Assembly (NCBI GenBank): GCA_951406725.2
Contig: OX597822.1
Coordinates: 19,034,001 to 19,098,000 of the forward strand
Direction of reading: 5' to 3'
From: Octopus vulgaris
Lineage: Eukaryota
Length of the DNA stretch: 64,000 bases
Under the pieces are notes generated by a model. It did no database searches, had not been told where the DNA came from, and worked only from the letters and a program-made list of their open reading frames with translations. This document shows, one piece after another, positions 21,941 to 55,020 of the stretch; within the stretch, counting starts at the first letter, position 1, and every line of letters starts with the position of its first letter. The position numbers and the translations under genes are program-made.

Positions 21941-22654
21941 AGTAGTGTTGTGTGGAATTAGGTCAGATAGCGATATCAAAGAGGATGTTGTTTGTTGCTG
22001 GCTAATGGGTCGTTGAAGTGACCCCTGACCTGCTGGCATTGGGTCAGTTGGTGCACTACATCCGTTGTATGGCTTCTAGTGTTGCCATGTGCATGTGTAA
22101 AGTATGAAATGATCTGGTGATTTATTTTGTTTTTGATCTGTTTTACAGATCTGTAAAAGGATTGTAACGCTAATTTTTCTGCGAGATTTTACCATAGACA
22201 TTAGCTTTTACACAATCGTTATGGTGATTGTACCAAGAGTTTATCAGTGCACTGATTTCGTTTTCTACCCAGTGGCACTTTGGAATATTATTGGCCATAT
22301 TCAGTGGGACAGTATTATACACTATACGTCAGTTATTGATGACTTGATGTATAATCGTGAATGCACCGTTAAAAAGTTTGTGCCAATATATTCAGAAATG
22401 CATGGCTATATCTGGGTGTGTGTGAGAGAATTCAGTGTATTTAGTAGAAATCAGAATGAGTGGTGTGTTTAATACAAATCAAGAGAAAATACTTGTACTC
22501 ACTGGTCTAGGTTTAGAACTAATCTTTGGTTTAGCTTTGGTTTATATTTGTTTCCCCAGATTGTATATAAATTCAGTTTTATATTTAAGAGATGAGGAAT
22601 TATGTACATTATTTACAATTGACTGGTATTTGTCCTCATCTTGTTTGTTGTTAA

Positions 22655-22695
22655 CACGGATTGGCTGATATACCCTCCAGCCTTCATCAGGTGTC
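22655..22695 (-). ncRNA. Degenerate minimal type-I hammerhead ribozyme (left arm)
   Basis: Minus strand gacac-CTGATGA-aggctg-gagggtatat-cagcc-aatcc-gtgtt: CUGAUGA box, stem II and stem I (gacac/gtgtt) are intact, but the GAAAC box is damaged. Confidence 0.65.
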
Positions 22696-22749
22696 TTGGG
22701 GAAATTTTGAACCTGGGTTCTCGTTCTTAAGGTATTTTTGATGTTGTTG

Positions 22750-22784
<35 letters not shown>

Positions 22785-22956
22785 ATCACTGACTGAAATC
22801 AAACTCGGAATCTTGGGGTTAGTAGCCTCCGCTCTTAGCCCCAAGATTCTGAGTTCGATTCCAGGCAGTGACCTGAATAATAATAATAATAATAATAACA
22901 ACAACAACATCGAAAATTATCTTAGGAATGAGAACCCAGGTTCGAAATTTCCCCCA

Positions 22957-23003
22957 GACACCTGATCAAGGCTAGAAGGTATATCAGCTGAAACATTGTG
23001 GTA
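22957..23003 (+). ncRNA. Degenerate minimal type-I hammerhead ribozyme (right arm)
   Basis: gacac-CTGATcA-aggct-agaaggtatatc-agct-GAAAC-att-gtggt: GAAAC is intact, G8 is mutated. Confidence 0.65.
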
Positions 23004-23251
23004 ACAACAAACAAGATGAGAACAAATATCCGTCAATTGTAAATAATGTAAACAACATGTATATAAAAACGTGTATGTAAATTTGTGTAAATTTACCTTC
23101 CGATGATAGTAAAATAGTGGAATAGTAGAATTCAAGGGTTCTGGGACTAAAAACAAGGAAACTTACTGGTGATTTGAGTTGAAATCTGTTTCTTTAGCTA
23201 CTGACTGGGTGGAGCTATGAGAAGTAAGATCAGCTGATATATATATATATA

Positions 23252-23636
23252 GGCGTAGGAGTGGCTGTTTGGTAAGTAGCTTGCTTACGAACCACATGGT
23301 TCCGGGTTCAGTCCCACTGCGTGGCACCTTGGGCAAGAGTCTTCTATAGCCTCGAGCCAGTCAAAGCCTTGTGAGTGGATTTGGTAGACGGAAACTGAAA
23401 GAAGCCCATCGTATATATGTATGCATGCGTGTATATGTTTGTGTGTCTGTATTTGTCCCCCCAACATCACTTGACAACCGATGCTGGTGTGTTTACGTCC
23501 CTGTAACTTAGTGGTCCAACGAGACCGATAAAATAAGTACTAGGCTTACAAAGAATAAGTCCTGGGGTCAATTTGCTTGATGAAAGGTGGTGCTCCAGAA
23601 TGGCCACAGTCAAATGACTGAAACAAGTAAAAGAGA

Positions 23637-32477: not shown

Positions 32478-32891
32478 TACTCTTTTTACTCTTTTACTCT
32501 TTTACTTGTTTCAGTCATTTGACTGTGGCCATGCTGGAGCACCGCCTTTTAATCGAGCAACTCGATCCCGGGACTTATTCTTTTGTAAGCCCAGTACTTA
32601 TTCTATCGGTGTCTTTTGCCGAACCGCTAAGTAACGGGGACATAAACACACCAGCATCGGTTGTCAAGCAATGCTAGGGGGACAAACACAGACACACAAA
32701 CACACACATACATATATATATATACATATATACGACGGGCTTCTTTCAGTTTCCGTCAACCAAATCCACTCACAAGGCTTTGGTCGGCCCGAGGCTATAG
32801 TAGAAGACACTTGCCCAAGATGCCACACAGTGGGACTGAACCTGGAACCATGTGGTTGGTAAACAAGCTACTTACCACATAGCCACTCCTG

Positions 32892-32892
<1 letters not shown>
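32478..32892 (-). mobile_element. tRNA-derived SINE, family 1 (full length)
   Basis: Reverse complement of 23252-23638, with a (aaaagagt)n tail; it truncates the Penelope ORF. Confidence 0.92.
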
Positions 32893-32928
<36 letters not shown>

Positions 32929-32931
<3 letters not shown>

Positions 32932-33267
32932 CATAGGAGTCGCTGAGTGGTAAGTAGCTTGCTTTCGAACCACCTGGTTCCGGGTTCAGTCCCACTGTGT
33001 GGCACCTTGGGCAAATGTCTTCTACTATAGCTTTGGGCCGACCAAAGCCTTGTGAGTGGATTTGGTAGACGGAAACTGAAAGAAACCCATCATGTATATG
33101 TATATATATACATATGTATGAGTGTGTGTCTGTGTTTGCCCTCCAACATCGCTCAACTGATGCTGGTGTGTTTACATCCCTGTAACTTAGCAGTTCGGCA
33201 AAAAGACTGATAGAATAAGTGCTAGGCTTACAAAGAATAAGTCTTGGGGTTGATGTGCTCAACTAAA

Positions 33268-33268
<1 letters not shown>
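32929..33268 (+). mobile_element. tRNA-derived SINE, family 1 (3' tail missing)
   Basis: Same head and body as 23252; head-to-head with the previous copy across (TA)n. Confidence 0.9.
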
Positions 33269-33300
<32 letters not shown>

Positions 33301-33301
<1 letters not shown>

Positions 33302-33630
33302 TCTTTTACTTGTTTCAGTTATTTGACTGTGGCCATGCTGGAGCACTGCCTTTAGTCGAAGAAATCGACCCCAGGACTTATTCTTTGTAAGCCTAGTACT
33401 TATTCTATCGGTCTCTTTTGCCAAACTGCTAAGTTACAGGGATGTAAACACACCAGCATCAGTTGTCAAGCGATGTTGGGAGACACAAACACACATACAT
33501 ACATATATATATATAAACATATATCCACTCACAAGGCTTTGGTCGGCCCGAGGCTATAGTAGAAGACACTTGCCCAAGGTGCCACACTGTGGGACTGAAC
33601 CCTGAACCATGTGGTTGGCAAGCAAGCTAT
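33301..33630 (-). mobile_element. tRNA-derived SINE, family 1 (internal deletion)
   Basis: Reverse complement of the family; tail-to-tail with 32929-33268. Confidence 0.9.
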
Positions 33631-39573: not shown

Positions 39574-39673
39574 TACACACATATACACATACACATCTAT
39601 ATCTTTCTCTCTTTTTCTCGCCCTCTCTCTCTCTATATAAAAACATATTAATACACACACACATATAAAATAT

Positions 39674-39979
39674 TCTATAATTATATACATAATAATAATC
39701 AGGGGTCAGCTAAGTGCCTCGCCATGTACTGAATTAGAAATAGACGCTAATGTCTTTTCAACTACCATAAAAATCTCTGAGACAATAACACACTTTTTTT
39801 ATGTAGGTAAAAAGAAAAATGATGAATCCACACAGCTTCGGTTAATCACAGATGCATTTCGAACTTAAAGTCTTGGAGATTTTTATGGTAGTTGAAAAGA
39901 CATTAGTGTGTATTTCTAATTCAGTACATGGCAAGGCACTTAGCTGACCCCTGATTATAATTATGTATATAATTATAGA
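39674..39979. repeat. Long inverted repeat (arms about 110 bp, spacer about 86 bp)
   Basis: 39674-39783 is the near-perfect reverse complement of 39870-39979 (aatcaggggtcagctaagtgcc / ggcacttagctgacccctgatt). Confidence 0.93.
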
Positions 39980-40119
39980 TTATTTTGTATAATTTACCTA
40001 AAAAACGTACTGACTACTTGGTAAAATTATTAATTGATTAATTTTACCTTATATTATTATTATATATATATGTACCCCACTCTGGTGGTTTCTAAGGAAG
40101 CTAGAAGGAGAGGAGTGGG

Positions 40120-41479: not shown

Positions 41480-42005
41480 ACTTTTGTATCTAAGTATTTT
41501 CTTTGTTTATCCATGTTTCATCTGTGGTATTTGCTGAACATAGGTAGAGTGGGAAGACCTGGAATTTAGGGGACTTAGTTTTGCATATATGACCACTCAG
41601 TGAAATCTGTCTAGTATTGGGGTCTCATATTTGTTGTCAGTGAATGATCAGTCGGTTTCTTAGAGTAGGCTTTGTTTGGCCTATGTTTGACCTTCATTAC
41701 ATCCTTGACATTTGATAGTGTATATTAAATTCCATGAAGAACATGTAAAGTGATTTTTTAAAGTAAACATCTGTCCTGATTTGAATTTGTATGTTGAATT
41801 TGTAAATTCAAATCAGGACAGACTTTTGCTGTAAAATTTCATTTTATATGTTCTTCAAGGAATTTAATATATCCTATCAAATGTCAAGGATGTAATGAAG
41901 ATTACATAGGTCAAACAAAGCTTACTCTAAGAAATAGACTAACTATTGACCGACAATAAATACAAAACCCAAGAACTAGACAAATTCCACTGAGTAGTCA
42001 CATAG
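41480..42005. mobile_element. Two Penelope GIY-YIG fragments in head-to-head inverted orientation
   Basis: Plus strand 41807-41960 reads FKSGQTFAVKFHFICSSRNLIYPIKCQGCNEDYIGQTKLTLRNR; 41588-41790 is a diverged reverse complement of 41803-42004. Confidence 0.85.
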
Positions 42006-48095: not shown

Positions 48096-48136
<41 letters not shown>

Positions 48137-48140
48137 TAGA

Positions 48141-51100
48141 TATGTTTCTTTATTAGCCACACAGGGCTGCACACAGACGGGACAAATTACAAGGTAGAGC
48201 TTTTCTTTAAGGGATAAAAAAAGGGGGGGTTGGTTTTCGATCAAAAGGGATCGTAAAAGGAAAGAAAGAGGAAAGCATAAGAAAAACAAAGGGGGGAGGG
48301 TAAATAAAAATAAAAGGAAAAAGAAAAAAATCGATCAATAGGGATCGTTATCACAGAAATGTCAATATAAAGTGTAAAAGGAAAGACAGGTGAGGTTTAC
48401 CTGTGGAAAGAAAAGCCTACGGAAAAGACCACAGTAACCTCGGTCAATGAAGTCACATGTTACATTTTTTTTTTACAAATAAGTAACTATCTGTATTAAA
48501 TTCTTACCGTTCATAGGATCATACTCAAGGTGGCTTCGTCATTCATACGTGCCATCCTTGCTACATTCACCCATCTTTTTTTAAAACATTCACTAGACAA
48601 AACTTGCCTCTCTACTCTCACTTTCCTTTTCAAGTGATACTTGAAGAAGTTGATGAGAGATTGACCAGAGAGGAAAGTGTTTGTCTCTAATCCTTTCAGG
48701 CGTGTCCACCAGATACATTCTTTCGCCATAGCCACAAGTATGATAAAAATAGCTCTTCCTTCCCGTTTGAAGGAAGGAGGCATAACTATATTAACGATAG
48801 ACTCAGCTGATAAACCGACACATCCCACACGTGACAGCAGTCGTTCGACATAAGTCCACAGGTCGGAGATTGTTGGACACTGCACGATTGCATGCAGAAC
48901 AGTTTCGTCGCTCTGACCGCATCTCGGGTAGGTCAGCGTCATGTTTCTTGAGCCATGCCTATAAAGCTTATCCCGAACAGGTAGCACTGCCAGGCCAGGG
49001 ATCTCTGAAAGTTGTCCATAGGTCCCAGCCCAAAAGTCGTCTCAAAAAGGCAGGTCAGGTATTCCTCATCAACGCCCAGGTTCGCCCCCAAGATCATCGT
49101 CGTACCTCCCCTCCACTAATCCCCTATAGAATGCTTTGGTTGTGTTGAAGTCACTCAAGGTCGACCCAGGACGGCATAGTTGCTTCAGAGCAACGCAACA
49201 CTCGCGATGCCATTCGCCCTTCCTCGGTCTCTTTTTAATCCACAACTGCAGTTCAGTCATGGAGACAAGCTGCAGGAAAGCGTGCCTCACAAATGGCGAT
49301 CATACCTGTTCACCGTCGTCTACATAGAGCTGGAGATGTTGCAGTCTCAGCGTGTGTCTGCACATCATCAACCACAGCATGCCCAGCCCTCCTTTTAACG
49401 GATGTTGACAGCAAATGGATCACCTGAACATCGGGACACATCCTTTCCACAAGAAGCAGAAGAGAATGCGTTCTAGTTTGGTGATGGTAAGGTCAGGACA
49501 AGGTACGACGGTCAGGCGGTAGTAAATGATGGACCAGATGTACGTGTTCAAGATAGATCGATAGATAGATAACTTTCTTTATTGGCCATACAGGGTTGGA
49601 CACAGAGGGGACAATTACAAATGTAGAGCTTTTCTTTTCGAAGGTGGAAAAGGAAAAAGAAGAAAATAAAGGAAACAAATGTAAAATTTCGATCAAAAGG
49701 AATCGGAAGAAAAAAAAACGATCAAAAGGGATCGTGTATCTCAGAAAGAAAAAAAATTTTTTTTTTTTCAAAGTAACAAACAAGATTAGGTTCATCCATG
49801 GAAAGAAAAGCCTACAGAAAAGACCACGGTAACCTCAGGCAGGGAGAAAAAAGAACACATGAGAGCAAAGTGCTCTCTCTCTCTTTTAAGAATTACAGGA
49901 TCATGCTCAAAGTGGTTTCGTCACTTGCACACACCATCTTTGCTACATTCACCCACCTTTTTTTTGAAACTTTCATGAGACAAAACCTGCCTTTCCATTC
50001 TCAACTTTCTTTTTCAAGTGGTACTTGAAAAAGTTGATGAGCGATTGGCCAGAGAGGTAAGTGTTTGTCTCTAATCCTTTCGCTCGAGTTCACCACACAC
50101 ATTCTTTCACCATAGCCACCAGTACGATGACGACTGCCTTGCCTTCCCAGTTGAGGGAAGGGGGCGGTGCAATTCACAAGATAGACTCGGCCGACAGGCG
50201 GACTCGTCCCACACGTGACAGCAGCCATTTGGCATAAGCCTACAGGTCTGAAATGGATGGACACTGCACGAGTACGTGTAGAACAGTTTAGTCCCTCTGA
50301 CCACATCTCAGGCAAGTCGGTCCAGTGTGTCTCGAACCGTGCCTATAGAGCTTATCCCGAACAGGTAATGCTTCTCGATAGCACTGCCAGGCCAGATATC
50401 TTTGGTGATTGTCCATAGGTCCCAGCCCGAAAGCTGTCCTGAAAAGGCGGGTCAGGTGTCTCTCGTCAACACCCAGATTCTGCCCAAGAACGTCGTCGCA
50501 CCTCCCCTCCACTAATCCTCTATAGAACACCTTTGTCGTAATGAAGTCGCACAAATTTGGTCTCGGATGACAGAGTTGCTTGAGAGCAACGCGACACTCG
50601 CAGTGCCATTCGCCCAGCCTCAGTCTCTGTTTGATCCACGATTGTAGTTCGGCCAAGGAGACGAGCTGCTGGAAAGCACGTCGCACAAAAGGCGACCACA
50701 CCTGTTCACCATCGTCTATGAAGCGCCGGGGATGTCGCAGTCTCAGCGCATGTCTGCGCATCATCAACCGCAGCATGCCTAGCCCTCAATTTAGCGGGTG
50801 TTGACAGCAAATGGATCACCTAACCATCAGAATGCTTCCCTTCCACAGGAAGCAGAAGAGTATACTTCCAGTTTGGTGATGGTAGAGTTGGGACAAGGCA
50901 CGACGGTCAGGCGGTACTCGATGACAGATGCGATGTACATGTTCGCCACCTCCGCCCAACCTTTTAGGGATAGCTTCTTCTCAGCCCATTGCTGGGTGAG
51001 AGTGGCTACCCTAGTCAAAATTTCGCCCCAGTTCTTCTCCATTTGGTGGTCCGGACCGAACCAGACTCCGAGCAATTTAACCGGTCTGTCGGTCCAGTGT

Positions 51101-52892
51101 CCCACGATGGAGACGCTGTTGGACGGCATGGGCTTGCTTCTCCAGGTGCCGAGCCACAAGCCCTTTGACATTTCCCGGTTAATTTTTGCTCCGTTACCGC
51201 TTCATATGTTTTTAGTGTCTCGCCGACCAGGTCGATATGCTTGTGGCTCGACACTATGATGGTGACGTTGTCCGTGTATGCAGACAGGCTCCTCCTGCAT
51301 CCCAGCTCTCGTGGGATGCCCCTCAGCATTGCCAGTTTCCTCAGTAGTGGCTCAAGAGTCAATACATACAGAAGCGATGAGAGCGGGCATCCTTGACAAA
51401 CCAAACACATGATGTTAAAAGGTCTGGAAAGATGACCATTTACGCGAACTACCGAGCGGATGCCGCTGTATAAGGCAGCAATCCAACCGTGGAAGATGGG
51501 ACCGAAACCAGCCGCTTTAAGGATAGCCTCCAAGTAGTGATGGTCTACCCTATCGAAGGCTTTTGATTGATCCAAATTGATCAGCGCCCCACCCATGCCA
51601 GGATCCTTGACTACCCTGTCTATGATGTAGCGCATCAGATGGAGGTTGTCATGGATACTCCTACCCAGCATGGCGCACATTTTCGCCTTGTCGACTATAG
51701 ATAGATAACTTTCTTTATTGGCCATACAGGGTTGGACACAGAGGGGACAATTACAACTGTAGAGCTTTTCTTTTCGGAGGTGGAAAAGGAAAAAGAAGAA
51801 AATAAAGGAAACAAATGTAAAATTTCGATCAAAAGAAATCGGAAGAAAAAAAAACGATCAAAAGGGATCGTGTATCTCAGAAAGAAAAAAAAAAATTTTT
51901 TTTTCCAAGTAACAAACAAGATTAGGTTCATCCATGGAAAGAAAAGCCTACAGAAACCTCAGGCAGGAAGGAAAAAGAACACATGAGAGCAAAGTGCTCT
52001 CTCTCTCTTTTAAGAATTACAGGATTATGCTCAAAGTGGTTTCGTCACTCATACGCACCATCTTTGCTACATTCACCCACCTTTTTTTGAAACTTTCACA
52101 AGACAAAACCTGCCTTTCCAAGTGGTACTTGAAAAAGTTGATGAGCAATTGGCCAGAGAGGTAAGTGTTTGTCTCTAATCCTTTTGCTCGAGTCCACCAC
52201 ACACATAAGCCCACAGGTCCGAAATGGATGGACACTGCACAAGTGCGTGCAGAACGGTTTAGTCCCTCTGACCACATCTCAGGCAAGTCGGTCCAGTGTG
52301 TCTCGAACCGTGCCTGTAGAGCTTATCCCGAACAGGTAATGCTTCTCGATAGCACTGCCAGGCCAGAGATCTTTGGTGATTGTCCATAGATCCCGGCCCG
52401 AAAGTTGTCCTGAACAGGCGGGTCAGGTGTCTCTCATCGACGCCCAGATTCTGCCCGAGAACGTCGTCGCACCTCCCCTCCACTAATCCTCTATAGAACG
52501 CTTTTGTTGTAATGAAGCCGCACAGACAGACAGACAGATATGTTTCTTTATTACCCACACAGGGCTGAACACAGATGGGACAAATTACAAGGTAGAGCTT
52601 TTCTTTTGGGGATAAAAAAAAGGGGGGTTGGTTTTCGATCAAAAGAGATCATAAAAGGAAAGAAAGAGGAAAGCAAAAGAAAAAAAAGGGGGTGAAAAAT
52701 AGAAATAAAATGAAAAAGAAAAAATCGATCAATAGGGATCGTTATCACAGAAATGTCAATATAAAGTGTAAAGGGGAAGACAGGTGAGGTTTACCCATGG
52801 AAAGAAAAGCCTACGGAAAAGACCACGGTAACCTCGGTCAATGAAGTCACATGTTACATTTTTTTTACAAATAAGTAACTCTCTGTATTAAA
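48141..52892 (-). mobile_element. Head-to-tail array of four 5'-truncated Tx1/L1-clade LINE ends (A1 48141-49550, B1 49570-51696, B2 51706-52523, A2 52538-52892)
   Basis: RT motifs LDQSKAFDRVDH, QGCPLS and AYTDNV (decayed YADD), LLGVWFG, and C-terminal C-x2-C..ET..H...C. Each unit ends in AATAAAGAAA followed by a TATC/TCTG/TA microsatellite. Confidence 0.9.
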
Positions 52893-53039
52893 TTGTTGGT
52901 TGAACAGTCTCATACTATGAGTGTGATGAATGCTGCCCAGTTTGTGTCTCAAGAGCTGACCTTACATGTCACCTACGTAAATGTACTAAAAGACCTCAAT
53001 TCGAATATAACCAGTTTCTAGTAGTTAATCCATAATGCA

Positions 53040-54404
53040 ATATATGTTGTAGAGAATTTTCCAGCCAATCCGGCTGCACAAAGCACATGAAAGTACACAA
53101 TCAAGATGTTGTACAAAATGAGCTCATAATTACAACACAAAGAAATGAATGCAACCTCTGCAACAAAAAATGCAACTCACATTTTGGTGCATCAGAAAAG
53201 AACTTAAGGAAAAATTTTCTTAATTCCCACAATGCCTCATTTGTGCTTTTTACAAAAAAAATTATGGGGAGGTCCCATAAGTTAAATATTTCCATTCAAT
53301 CTGTTCCAAATAAATTTGTTATATTATTCAGTACAAAATGTAACATCACTTATCATTTCACCCTTAAAGTGCAATCTTTTTCTTGAAACACCACATGCAA
53401 TAATTGAAGATTTTTTCAACTTAGGTTTTCCAATTTCCCTCCACGTAACTGTTATCATGATATTACTGCCCAGATCCAATTGTAACTTGATATTAACATT
53501 ATTCATTTTTATGAACACATATTTTCTTTTCTGAGACTCGGTTAGATCTTTTGTTGACAATACTTTCTTGCCAGGAATTTTTTTGTTTGACCTTCTTTTT
53601 TGTTGTTTTGCTCTACAATGTGAGCTTTTATGTTTGATTTTTCCACACTCAAAATATAAGCCTCCACACCCATAGCATGGCTTGGATCTCGACATATGTT
53701 TTTCTTTTTTCTTATCCATTGTAGGTTGACACATTCACAAACATGAGCTCAACCCTTTCTTCAGCTTTATCTCTGTCATGTCTTAAATTTTTAATCCTCT
53801 GCCACTGCTTGTAGAGTTAATTTTTTGGTCCTGGGAAAGTGTAACTGCATCTTTGCTAGCAGCTAGCGCTTGAACAAAAATTAGACATTTGAACATGTCT
53901 GGGGTTAATTCATTTAATTTAAATTTTTCACATTCTCTGTTTTCCACCCACGTATGGTAACAAAATCTTCATCATCTTTTTTTATTTTTAACCAAATTTA
54001 AGCAATGCCAGCAAGTATTGAACAGGAAACTTCTTTCACTGGAAATCTTCGATAAAATGTTGTTTCATGAAAACAAATCTCACCTGATTTCTTTGGCAAA
54101 ATATAATTACAATATCCTTCAGGTTCGGCAGGGGGAACTTTCTTAAAAGTAGCCACACTTTTTTCTCATTAGTCCAATTGTTGCATTCTTCTTTGAAGAT
54201 TTCTTTGTATCTTCAAAAATATGCAAAGAAAGTAATACCTTCTTCTGGATTATAAGTGGCTGTGTGGTAAGTAGCTTTCTTAGCAACCACATGGTTCCTG
54301 GTTCAATCCCACTGCATGGCACCTTGGGGAAGTGTCTTCTACTATAGCCTCAGGCTGACCAAAATTTTGTGAGTGGATTTGGTCAACAGAAACTGAAAGA
54401 AGCT

Positions 54405-54444
<40 letters not shown>

Positions 54445-55020
54445 TTATCCCCCCAACATTGCTTGACAACTGATGCTGGTGTGTTTATATCCCCATAACT
54501 TAGCAGTTCAGGAAAAAAGACAGATAGAATAAGTACTAGATTTACAAACAACAAGTCCTGGGGTCAATTTCCTCAACTAAAGGCGGTGCTCCAGCATGGC
54601 TGCAGTCAAATGACTGAAGAAGTAAAAGAATAAACTCTCCAATCAAATAAGTCATGGCATGAACAACCCAGAAGTACTTTCAGCTTTCTTCAACATTAAT
54701 TCCAGTAACTGTTGCAGCTGCACCATACAGGCCAATAAATCCTCTATGCAAACAATTCTTTTCTTTGGTTTCGTAACAAAAAGTTCAACAATCCAATGCA
54801 AGCTTCAAATATCTTGTCACCACTTTTATATCTTTGGTTGCGGATGTATGATTTTAAGTAAGCAGGGGGTAAAGCAATGCAGTCACAAATGTAACTTCTG
54901 ACTACCAACATGCAAGACTCCAATACTTTCTTCTCTATTTCAACAAGACACGTTACTCTTTATAAAAGTTCAACGAGTCACCTTCTAATCGCATAGGGGT
55001 ATTAATATCTATCATCAAAA
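53040..55020 (-). mobile_element. Decayed Ty3/gypsy LTR retrotransposon 5' part (probable LTR, PBS, gag, protease), interrupted by a SINE
   Basis: ORF 53324-53734 has zinc-knuckle remnants (CYGCGG, CGKIKHKSSHC) and an aspartic protease motif (KLQLDLGSNIMIT). PBS-like agTGGTGACAAG on the minus strand at about 54813-54824. Confidence 0.75.
54256..54633 (+). mobile_element. tRNA-derived SINE, family 1
   Basis: gtggctgtgtggtaagtagc head through ggcggtgctccagcatggctgcagtcaaatgactgaa tail. Confidence 0.92.

What the first reader, a model, noticed from the sequence alone, without database searches (positions are those of the whole stretch)
22574..23050. tRNA-Ile-like Pol III head fused to a hammerhead ribozyme, in a head-to-head palindrome: candidate cephalopod ribozyme-SINE (retrozyme-like) system
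Seen: each arm reads tRNA-like head (taagagcggaggctactaaccccaagattccgagttcgattcc, B-box at 22851-22862), then (AAT)n, about 45 nt of linker, a hammerhead core and about 80 nt of tail. The two arms are damaged at different positions: the left keeps CTGATGA and stems I and II, the right keeps GAAAC. Together they reconstruct gacac-CTGATGA-aggctg..cagcc-GAAAC-rTT-gtgtt, a minimal type-I hammerhead with almost no stem III. Established: the head resembles eukaryotic tRNA-Ile(AAT) from the D-arm to the T-arm; minimal dimer-dependent hammerheads and inverted 5' copies are hallmarks of Penelope-like elements; Schistosoma SM-alpha is a precedent for a tRNA-promoter plus hammerhead repeat. Inference: this is a non-coding, Pol III-driven, self-cleaving element mobilised by Penelope RT/GIY-YIG rather than by a LINE. 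I know of no description of this in octopus, but cannot check the literature.
Basis: partly seen in the sequence, partly recalled or inferred. Interest (0 to 1): 0.85.

Follow-up and report, generated by a model that had tools for sequence, protein, structure and literature searches.

The report
Penelope retrotransposon with tRNA-derived promoter
The palindrome is two shortened, head-to-head end pieces of a protein-coding Penelope-type retrotransposon, not a separate SINE, but this family carries a tRNA-derived segment right where about half of the sampled head-bearing copies begin, and that segment likely acts as an RNA polymerase III promoter for the element.

Summary
The palindrome, tRNA-like head, (AAT)n and damaged hammerheads are real. 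They are not a separate non-coding SINE. The unit is the pseudo-LTR of an autonomous Penelope/Poseidon element: the RT-GIY-YIG ORF stops about 30 nt before the head, and the hammerhead and tail are the first ~150 nt of the next ORF. Short and ORF-linked copies differ in 0 of 246 majority columns. Inverted truncated pairs are routine (57 of 94 arms); the window's arms lack the A box. The head best matches tRNA-Arg(ACG) or a resident SINE head, not Ile. What is unusual: consensus A and B boxes are kept while the cloverleaf is lost; 71 of 137 arms start within 8 nt of tRNA +1 (6.7%/nt versus 0.3%/nt upstream); and the 2.5-kb sense strand nearly lacks TTTT terminators (modest significance). Likely a captured Pol III promoter replacing the usual Pol II one, possibly driving even the coding RNA. 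One unrelated tandem element (L252) looks similar. Polymerase and cleavage are untested; RNA reads were uninformative.

The parts
22574..22604 (-). Optional ~30-nt Penelope 'tail', present on the left arm only
   Evidence: Left arm aligns to reference column 169, right arm only to 143; family 3' ends are bimodal, 26 of 94 at columns 144-155 and 50 of 94 at 174-179
22574..22739 (-). Left arm: linker, hammerhead and first codons of the RT-GIY-YIG ORF (start codon mutated to ACG)
22653..22695 (-). Left hammerhead: stem I, CUGAUGA and stem II kept, GAAAC lost
22742..22781 (-). (AAT/AAC)n tract of the left arm
   Evidence: sequence
22782..22840 (-). Left tRNA-like head, positions ~+17 to +75, no A box, B box with two substitutions
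22817..22840 (.). Inversion junction at the head's internal imperfect hairpin (D loop to anticodon arm)
   Evidence: same junction type in L003, L028 and L123
22831..22875 (+). Right tRNA-like head, 3' part, with B box at 22851-22862; no A box
22876..22910 (+). (AAT/AAC)n tract of the right arm
   Evidence: sequence
22913..23055 (+). Right arm: linker, likely start ATG at 22928-22930, hammerhead and first ORF codons; no tail
22957..23002 (+). Right hammerhead: CUGAUCA (core damaged), GAAAC kept

Best explanation
[quoted passage not shown] SHOWN: the unit is ORF stop, ~30 nt, tRNA-like head (75 nt), (AAT)n, linker, ATG, minimal type I hammerhead inside the first ORF codons, tail, then the rest of an ~2.5-kb RT-GIY-YIG ORF. 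SHOWN: about half of head-bearing arms begin at tRNA +1 +/- 8 nt. INFERRED mechanism: TFIIIC binds the A and B boxes, Pol III starts about 7 nt upstream of +1 and, meeting no TTTT, reads through the hammerhead and into the ORF. The element's protein nicks AT-rich DNA and starts reverse transcription internally at one of two tail sites (by analogy to the anole Poseidon, PMC11167929). It therefore copies only the ~270-nt head-to-tail stretch from RNAs that start at the head, and the whole element from tandem read-through RNAs. The cDNA end then snaps back at a short palindrome (TGCCC-AC-GGGCA at -7 to +5, or a second hairpin at +17 to +39) to make the inverted arm. The window copy folded back at the second hairpin, lost its A box and is dead. 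The hammerhead would need a second direct copy or protein help; it does not set the copy ends.
For: Element structure: 27 of 30 loci picked by the endonuclease stretch (two are the same locus) have the head and/or hammerhead just downstream on the same strand. L247 is pLTR-ORF-pLTR with an open frame running through the hammerhead. 25 of 30 loci picked by the ORF's 5' part have the hammerhead/tail block directly upstream, 8 of them with the head too. RVT_1 at E 1e-9; the C-terminal region aligns to an Anolis carolinensis homologue at 31%, E 3e-26. No separate lineage: 0 of 75 head and 0 of 171 downstream columns differ in majority between 71 short and 48 ORF-linked arms. Start site: 71 of 137 arms (111 of 145 loci) start at -8 to +8; hazard 6.7%/nt versus 1.4%/nt inside the head and 0.31%/nt upstream of -40. 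All 15 arms starting at -7 are preceded by A, the fold-back letter. A second hammerhead family in the same genome also piles up (24 of 30 within 65-79 nt of the anchor), at an Initiator-like motif with a T-rich leader, so pile-ups likely mark start sites. Pol III signs: A box TGGCGTAGTGG and B box AGTTCGATTCC fit the recalled type 2 consensus while the fold is lost (z +1.63; no ARAGORN call). No TTTT in the 2,522-column majority and 0.36/kb in 94 copy segments. 0-1 observed versus 2.7-3.8 expected under synonymous shuffles in four long copies (P 0.012-0.057), against a median observed/expected of 1.0 in 77 other Penelope-like ORFs. Several relatives show CCAAT/TATA-like motifs at the same place instead (read by eye).
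Against: No transcript evidence: RNA reads fell about equally on both strands and tracked copy number. The pile-up marks a start or a fold-back site, not a polymerase, and the control family piles up without any tRNA. A TATA-like TTTATAAG lies ~27 nt upstream of -7, so Pol II is possible. Fold-back also happens at the internal hairpin, so it does not need an RNA end. The TTTT deficit is modest: P 0.0095, 0.069 and 0.19 under order-0, -1 and -2 nulls. The copies share one ancestor and are not independent, L217 shows no deficit (2 versus 1.95), 5 of 77 controls are as depleted, and the 5'-ORF copies hold 15 T4 and 3 T5 runs in 26.7 kb. Uncapped Pol III RNA is a poor mRNA (own knowledge). Only 9 of 30 ORF-linked arms keep the whole hammerhead core, so present-day activity is unlikely.
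Confidence: 0.65

Rival explanations
1. Ordinary Penelope/Poseidon element with a Pol II promoter. A SINE or tRNA fragment with an (AAT)n tail once inserted into the pseudo-LTR and rides along. The 5' pile-up comes from a Pol II start (TATA-like motif ~27 nt upstream) or from fold-back at the palindrome.
For: TATA-like motif at a fitting distance. A second family piles up at an Initiator-like site with no tRNA. The head resembles a resident SINE head. The TTTT deficit weakens under higher-order nulls. Known Penelope promoters are internal and lie in the pseudo-LTR (PMC8557442, passages).
Against: The start coincides with tRNA +1 and both boxes match consensus while the stems have decayed. The stronger internal hairpin captures about 7 of 137 arms, the weak 5-bp palindrome region 71. 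Phe codons are 115 TTT to 396 TTC although other NNY codons are 51% T, a skew beyond the controls' 5th percentile.
Confidence: 0.27
2. One reading: an independent non-coding Pol III SINE/retrozyme (tRNA head plus hammerhead), mobilised in trans by a Penelope element and processed by self-cleavage.
For: Short head-to-tail copies outnumber ORF-bearing ones (6 of 94 hammerhead-anchored arms are ORF-linked). Short copies with both boxes could in principle be re-transcribed. L407 and L416 share one chimeric junction, hinting at some re-amplification or duplication.
Against: 0 of 246 diagnostic columns. The block is part of the autonomous element and its 'tail' is coding. Almost no direct tandems (4 of 94). 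No ends at the cleavage site.
Confidence: 0.08

Closest known systems
Penelope/Poseidon clade, e.g. Poseidon of Anolis carolinensis (PAc; PMC11167929, parts 1-2 of 4 read)
   Same: Single RT plus C-terminal GIY-YIG ORF, pLTR-ORF-pLTR tandems, hammerhead overlapping the ORF start, two 3' ends ~30 nt apart (tail), inverted 5'-truncated copies (the last from PMC8557442, passages).
   Different: A tRNA-derived A/B-box head and (AAT)n occupy the pseudo-LTR at the copy start; near absence of TTTT on the sense strand. No such head is mentioned in the passages I read.
Minimal type I hammerheads of metazoan Penelope-like elements (PMC4209133, passages)
   Same: No helix III, palindromic C-G at 15.2/16.2, extra base between positions 9 and 10.1, G10.1-C11.1 pair, 6-bp helix II.
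   Different: Nothing notable; cleavage not tested here.
Schistosoma SINE-like hammerhead repeats (SM-alpha/Sj-alpha; review PMC6765202, passages)
   Same: Pol III-type promoter followed by a hammerhead in a high-copy repeat.
   Different: Those are described as non-coding tandem repeats released by cleavage. Here the block is the pseudo-LTR of a coding element, copies are dispersed and inverted, and ends are not at the cleavage site.
Non-LTR retrozymes (PMC7229834, passages; bioRxiv 10.64898/2026.07.22.740005, part 1 of 5 and passages)
   Same: Type I hammerhead, ~300-nt size, Penelope ancestry.
   Different: Not head-to-tail tandem arrays, minimal rather than canonical ribozyme, no separate lineage.
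tRNA-derived SINEs, including octopus SINEs (Ohshima and Okada 1994 seen only as a reference line)
   Same: Degenerate tRNA head with A and B boxes; many copies start at tRNA +1.
   Different: Head fused into an autonomous element; 3' end is a Penelope tail, not a LINE tail.

Membership tests
Penelope-like element, Penelope/Poseidon clade | Single ORF with RT followed by C-terminal GIY-YIG endonuclease | tested here: met
   RVT_1 E 1e-9; YSIPCSCG..Y.GET motif and 31% identity to an Anolis homologue. Pfam gave no GIY-YIG hit on our copies; all copies seen are broken.
Penelope-like element, Penelope/Poseidon clade | No CX2-5CxxC zinc finger in the RT-EN linker (separates it from Neptune/Nematis) | tested here: met
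   Translations show none, read by eye; criterion from PMC8557442
Penelope-like element, Penelope/Poseidon clade | Phylogenetic placement among reference clades | not tested
   No named reference set was at hand; no tree built
Penelope-like element, Penelope/Poseidon clade | Partial tandems forming pseudo-LTRs with a minimal hammerhead | tested here: met
   L247, L423 and others; 848 exact cores
Penelope-like element, Penelope/Poseidon clade | Inverted 5'-truncated copy and optional 30-40 nt tail at one end | tested here: met
   57 of 94 arms have an inverted partner; bimodal 3' ends; window has the tail on one arm only
tRNA-derived SINE | tRNA-derived head with A and B boxes | tested here: met
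   Score 66 versus shuffled maximum 45; boxes are the column majority. The window's own arms lack the A box.
tRNA-derived SINE | Independent non-autonomous lineage distinct from its partner | tested here: not met
   0 of 246 majority columns differ; head is part of the autonomous element
tRNA-derived SINE | Transcribed by RNA polymerase III | not testable with these tools
   Indirect only; RNA lay uninformative
Non-LTR retrozyme | Head-to-tail tandem units each with a hammerhead | tested here: not met
   4 of 94 arms have a second direct hammerhead part within 1.4 kb
Non-LTR retrozyme | Units delimited by the cleavage site; circular RNAs | tested here: inconclusive
   No DNA copy ends pile up at the site (2 of 80); circular RNA not assessable in the runs laid
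Minimal type I hammerhead | CUGANGA / GAAA / NUH core with stems I and II | tested here: met
   Family majority and 848 exact copies; both window arms are damaged
Minimal type I hammerhead | Self-cleavage | not testable with these tools
   Needs in vitro assay

The most novel reading that the evidence does not exclude
An autonomous, protein-coding Penelope retrotransposon has swapped its Pol II promoter for a tRNA-derived Pol III promoter and purged TTTT terminators from its whole 2.5-kb ORF, so that its mRNA is an uncapped Pol III transcript. Short head-to-tail copies are then a SINE being born directly from its own parent. L252, an unrelated tandem Penelope-like element with A/B-box-like motifs and AATAAT between ORF stop and hammerhead and a low TTTT count, would be a second, independent case.
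Probability: 0.33. Interest if true: 0.82.

Novelty: new variant of a known kind. Interest (0 to 1): 0.55.

Why it matters
If Pol III drives this element, it would be an autonomous eukaryotic retrotransposon whose coding RNA comes from a tRNA promoter. That raises a testable question: how an uncapped RNA with a hammerhead inside its first codons is translated, which bears on the open role of Penelope hammerheads. It also gives a concrete route by which Pol III-plus-hammerhead repeats like SM-alpha could arise from Penelope elements. For annotation, thousands of 'tRNA-SINE-like' palindromes in this genome are Penelope ends. If Pol II drives it, the finding is an ordinary Penelope family with a passenger tRNA fragment.

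Tried and rejected
Rfam scans found neither tRNA nor hammerhead; ARAGORN found no tRNA in the window or in four family loci. Pfam gave no hit on the thumb-EN stretch and no GIY-YIG hit. tRNA-Ile origin rejected as best match; only 13 tRNA types were sampled, so the donor is not settled. Separate SINE lineage rejected. Deletion derivative joining the ORF's 5' part to the head as the cause of the pile-up rejected: 0 of 84 such starters have that upstream. Cleavage-defined ends rejected. Palindrome as the hammerhead dimer rejected: opposite strands. Sequencing runs: no RNA holder listed on record; three raw RNA runs gave equal strands and depth following copy number, no start-site signal, so no evidence either way. 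Viral contigs gave no relatives; genome contigs gave 11 loci, four used as controls. Younger-looking short copies (6.4% versus 8.8% divergence) were not used, because they were picked by exact-match patterns. Ten paper searches listed no description of a tRNA-headed or Pol III-driven Penelope element. Lunse 2017, the 1994 octopus SINE paper, Repbase/Dfam entries and paper supplements were not seen, so a prior database annotation cannot be excluded.

Full report
Observation. The stretch 22605-23050 matches itself inverted at 84% over 456 nt. Aligned to a natural intact copy (L068), the left arm covers head positions ~17-75 (22840-22782) and the downstream block to column 169 (22739-22574); the right arm covers the same head part (to 22875) and the block to column 143 (22913-23055). 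The B box is at 22851-22862 as stated. The left hammerhead keeps CUGAUGA and both stems and has lost GAAAC; the right keeps GAAAC and reads CUGAUCA. Neither arm has the A box. Rfam and ARAGORN call nothing relevant.

Family. A search with the right arm gave 4,756 first-look candidates, 40 scored. The intact 46-nt hammerhead occurs exactly 848 times and a 33-nt head stretch 1,394 times, controls 0. A hand estimate from column conservation puts the family near 10^4 arms. The fold of an intact copy has a 5-bp stem I, a 6-bp stem II and no stem III, matching the minimal Penelope hammerhead of PMC4209133 (passages). All 30 head-anchored arms are followed by (AAT)n and 25 by the hammerhead block. 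Five organism labels hold the stretch in public runs.

It is the end of an autonomous element. L010 carries, upstream of the head, a GIY-YIG-type coding stretch and is itself a 1.3-kb inverted pair. Of 30 loci picked by that stretch (two are one locus), 27 have the head and/or hammerhead directly downstream, and their open frames show RT motifs, linker and endonuclease ending about 30 nt before the head. The RT scores RVT_1 at 1e-9; 161 homologues were found; the C-terminal part aligns to an Anolis carolinensis protein at 31%. L247 is pLTR-ORF-pLTR, and its frame runs from an ATG in the linker through the hammerhead and tail into the N-terminal domain. Of 30 loci picked by the ORF's 5' part, 25 have the hammerhead/tail block directly upstream and 8 of those the head too. 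This is the layout of the anole Poseidon, where the ORF starts in the hammerhead and two internal reverse-transcription starts define the optional tail (PMC11167929, parts 1-2 of 4). Here 3' ends are bimodal (26 and 50 of 94) and the window has the tail on one arm only. Inverted partners occur for 57 of 94 arms, a known trait (PMC8557442, passages).

Not a separate SINE or retrozyme. Between 71 short and 48 ORF-linked arms no majority letter differs in 75 head and 171 downstream columns. Direct second hammerhead parts are rare (4 of 94) and 5' ends do not collect at the cleavage site (2 of 80 non-anchor hits in that bin).

The head. Against 56 host tRNA sequences of 13 types the head scores 66 with Arg(ACG), 61 with Arg(TCG) and 59 with Ile(AAT); shuffled queries reach at most 45. 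A resident SINE head scores 71 against 63-64 for Arg(ACG) in a second comparison, so the donor is a tRNA-Arg-like gene or SINE head. The A box (TGGCGTAGTGG) and B box (AGTTCGATTCC) fit the type 2 consensus as I recall it, while the cloverleaf is gone.

Where copies start. Among 137 head-bearing arms from 111 of 145 loci (four overlapping loci dropped; loci picked by ORF sequence left out), 71 start at -8 to +8 of tRNA +1, 13 at -20 to -9 (most look like fold-backs extended by chance), 40 inside the head and 13 upstream of -40. The hazard is 6.7%/nt at the boundary, 1.4%/nt inside the head, 2.5%/nt at -41 to -9 and 0.31%/nt further up. All 15 arms at -7 are preceded by A, as expected if the cDNA ended there and folded back on TGCCC-AC-GGGCA. 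A second hairpin at about +17 explains the window's own junction. A control hammerhead family (3,170 exact matches; likely Penelope-like, ORF not shown) also piles up, 24 of 30 within 65-79 nt of its anchor, at an Initiator-like motif followed by T-rich sequence. So a pile-up likely marks a start site but does not name the polymerase.

Terminator test. Of 62 host tRNA genes, 55 have a T run of 4 or more within 40 nt, and in 19 the first such run is exactly 4. The element's 2,522-column majority has no TTTT; 94 copy segments have 0.36/kb and no T5; P is 0.0095, 0.069 and 0.19 under order-0, -1 and -2 nulls. Under synonymous shuffles four long copies have 0-1 against 2.7-3.8 expected (P 0.012-0.057), one (L217) shows no deficit, and 77 control ORFs have a median ratio of 1.0 with 5 at or below 0.25. 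Phe codons are 115 TTT to 396 TTC. Thirty 5'-ORF copies hold 15 T4 and 3 T5 in 26.7 kb. The copies are not independent, so this is suggestive, at roughly the 5% tail.

A possible second case. Of 75 metagenomic relatives scanned, an A/B-box pattern hit L252 (just after the ORF stop) and L272 (upstream, probably a SINE). L252 is a tandem with a 2,791-nt unit: ORF stop, A-box-like and B-box-like motifs, AATAAT, then an ATG at the hammerhead. Its tRNA score is 50, the highest of 39 control flanks (next 44; shuffled maximum 49), and its ORF has 1 TTTT per unit against 3.5 expected. This is a lead, not a demonstration. Several other relatives show CCAAT/TATA-like motifs there (by eye).

RNA. No holder was on record as RNA. 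Three raw RNA runs laid on L248 gave equal strands and a depth profile like genomic copy number, which says nothing about the promoter.

Mechanism and verdict. Shown: a Penelope/Poseidon pseudo-LTR with a tRNA-derived head at the dominant copy start (about 0.95). Inferred: the head is a Pol III promoter for at least the short RNAs (about 0.6) and perhaps for the coding RNA (about 0.33). The rival is a Pol II start with a passenger tRNA fragment; a TATA-like motif lies ~27 nt upstream of -7. Pol III plus hammerhead has a precedent in schistosome repeats (PMC6765202, passages), and Penelope-derived retrozymes are described (PMC7229834 passages; bioRxiv 10.64898/2026.07.22.740005). Ten searches listed no tRNA-headed Penelope element, but repeat databases, supplements and subscription papers were not seen. 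The window copy itself is a dead fragment; the family is a new variant of a known kind. Interest 0.55.

Noticed in passing
L252:2811-2990 (repeat at +2791): Unrelated tandem Penelope-like element with an intact-looking ~900-codon frame, A/B-box-like motifs and AATAAT between ORF stop and hammerhead, and few TTTT runs; best tRNA match an intron-containing tRNA-Tyr.
   Followed up: partly
L330-L359 (G000): Second hammerhead repeat family, 3,170 exact 27-nt matches; 24 of 30 copies start 65-79 nt upstream at an Initiator-like motif, mostly next to (TA)n.
   Followed up: partly
window 41586-42004: Another inverted pair; one arm reads like a GIY-YIG remnant of a different Penelope-like family (by eye).
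   Followed up: partly
window 39663-39990: AT-rich inverted pair, 80% identity, unrelated to the family studied.
   Followed up: no
window 23237-23635, 32493-33629, 54255-54634: Common tRNA-related SINE-like repeat with several copies in the window, including an inverted pair at 32548-33267.
   Followed up: no
L407:1730 and L416:1731 (oriented coordinates): Two loci share the same junction from ORF position ~238 to head position -6; L404 and L421 have similar jumps. Possible template jumps at the RNA 5' end, or a small sub-lineage.
   Followed up: partly
G000:C2:211887720-211907118 and C1:141250000-141290000: Clusters of tRNA-Arg(ACG) and tRNA-Thr(AGT) genes, the former partly in ~206-nt tandem spacing.
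   Followed up: no
L360-L363: Penelope-like ORFs in bacterial metagenome-assembled genomes, two with hammerhead motifs (L360, L362); probably host contamination.
   Followed up: no
window 48124-52897: Tandem duplications of about 1.4 kb with internal rearrangement.
   Followed up: no
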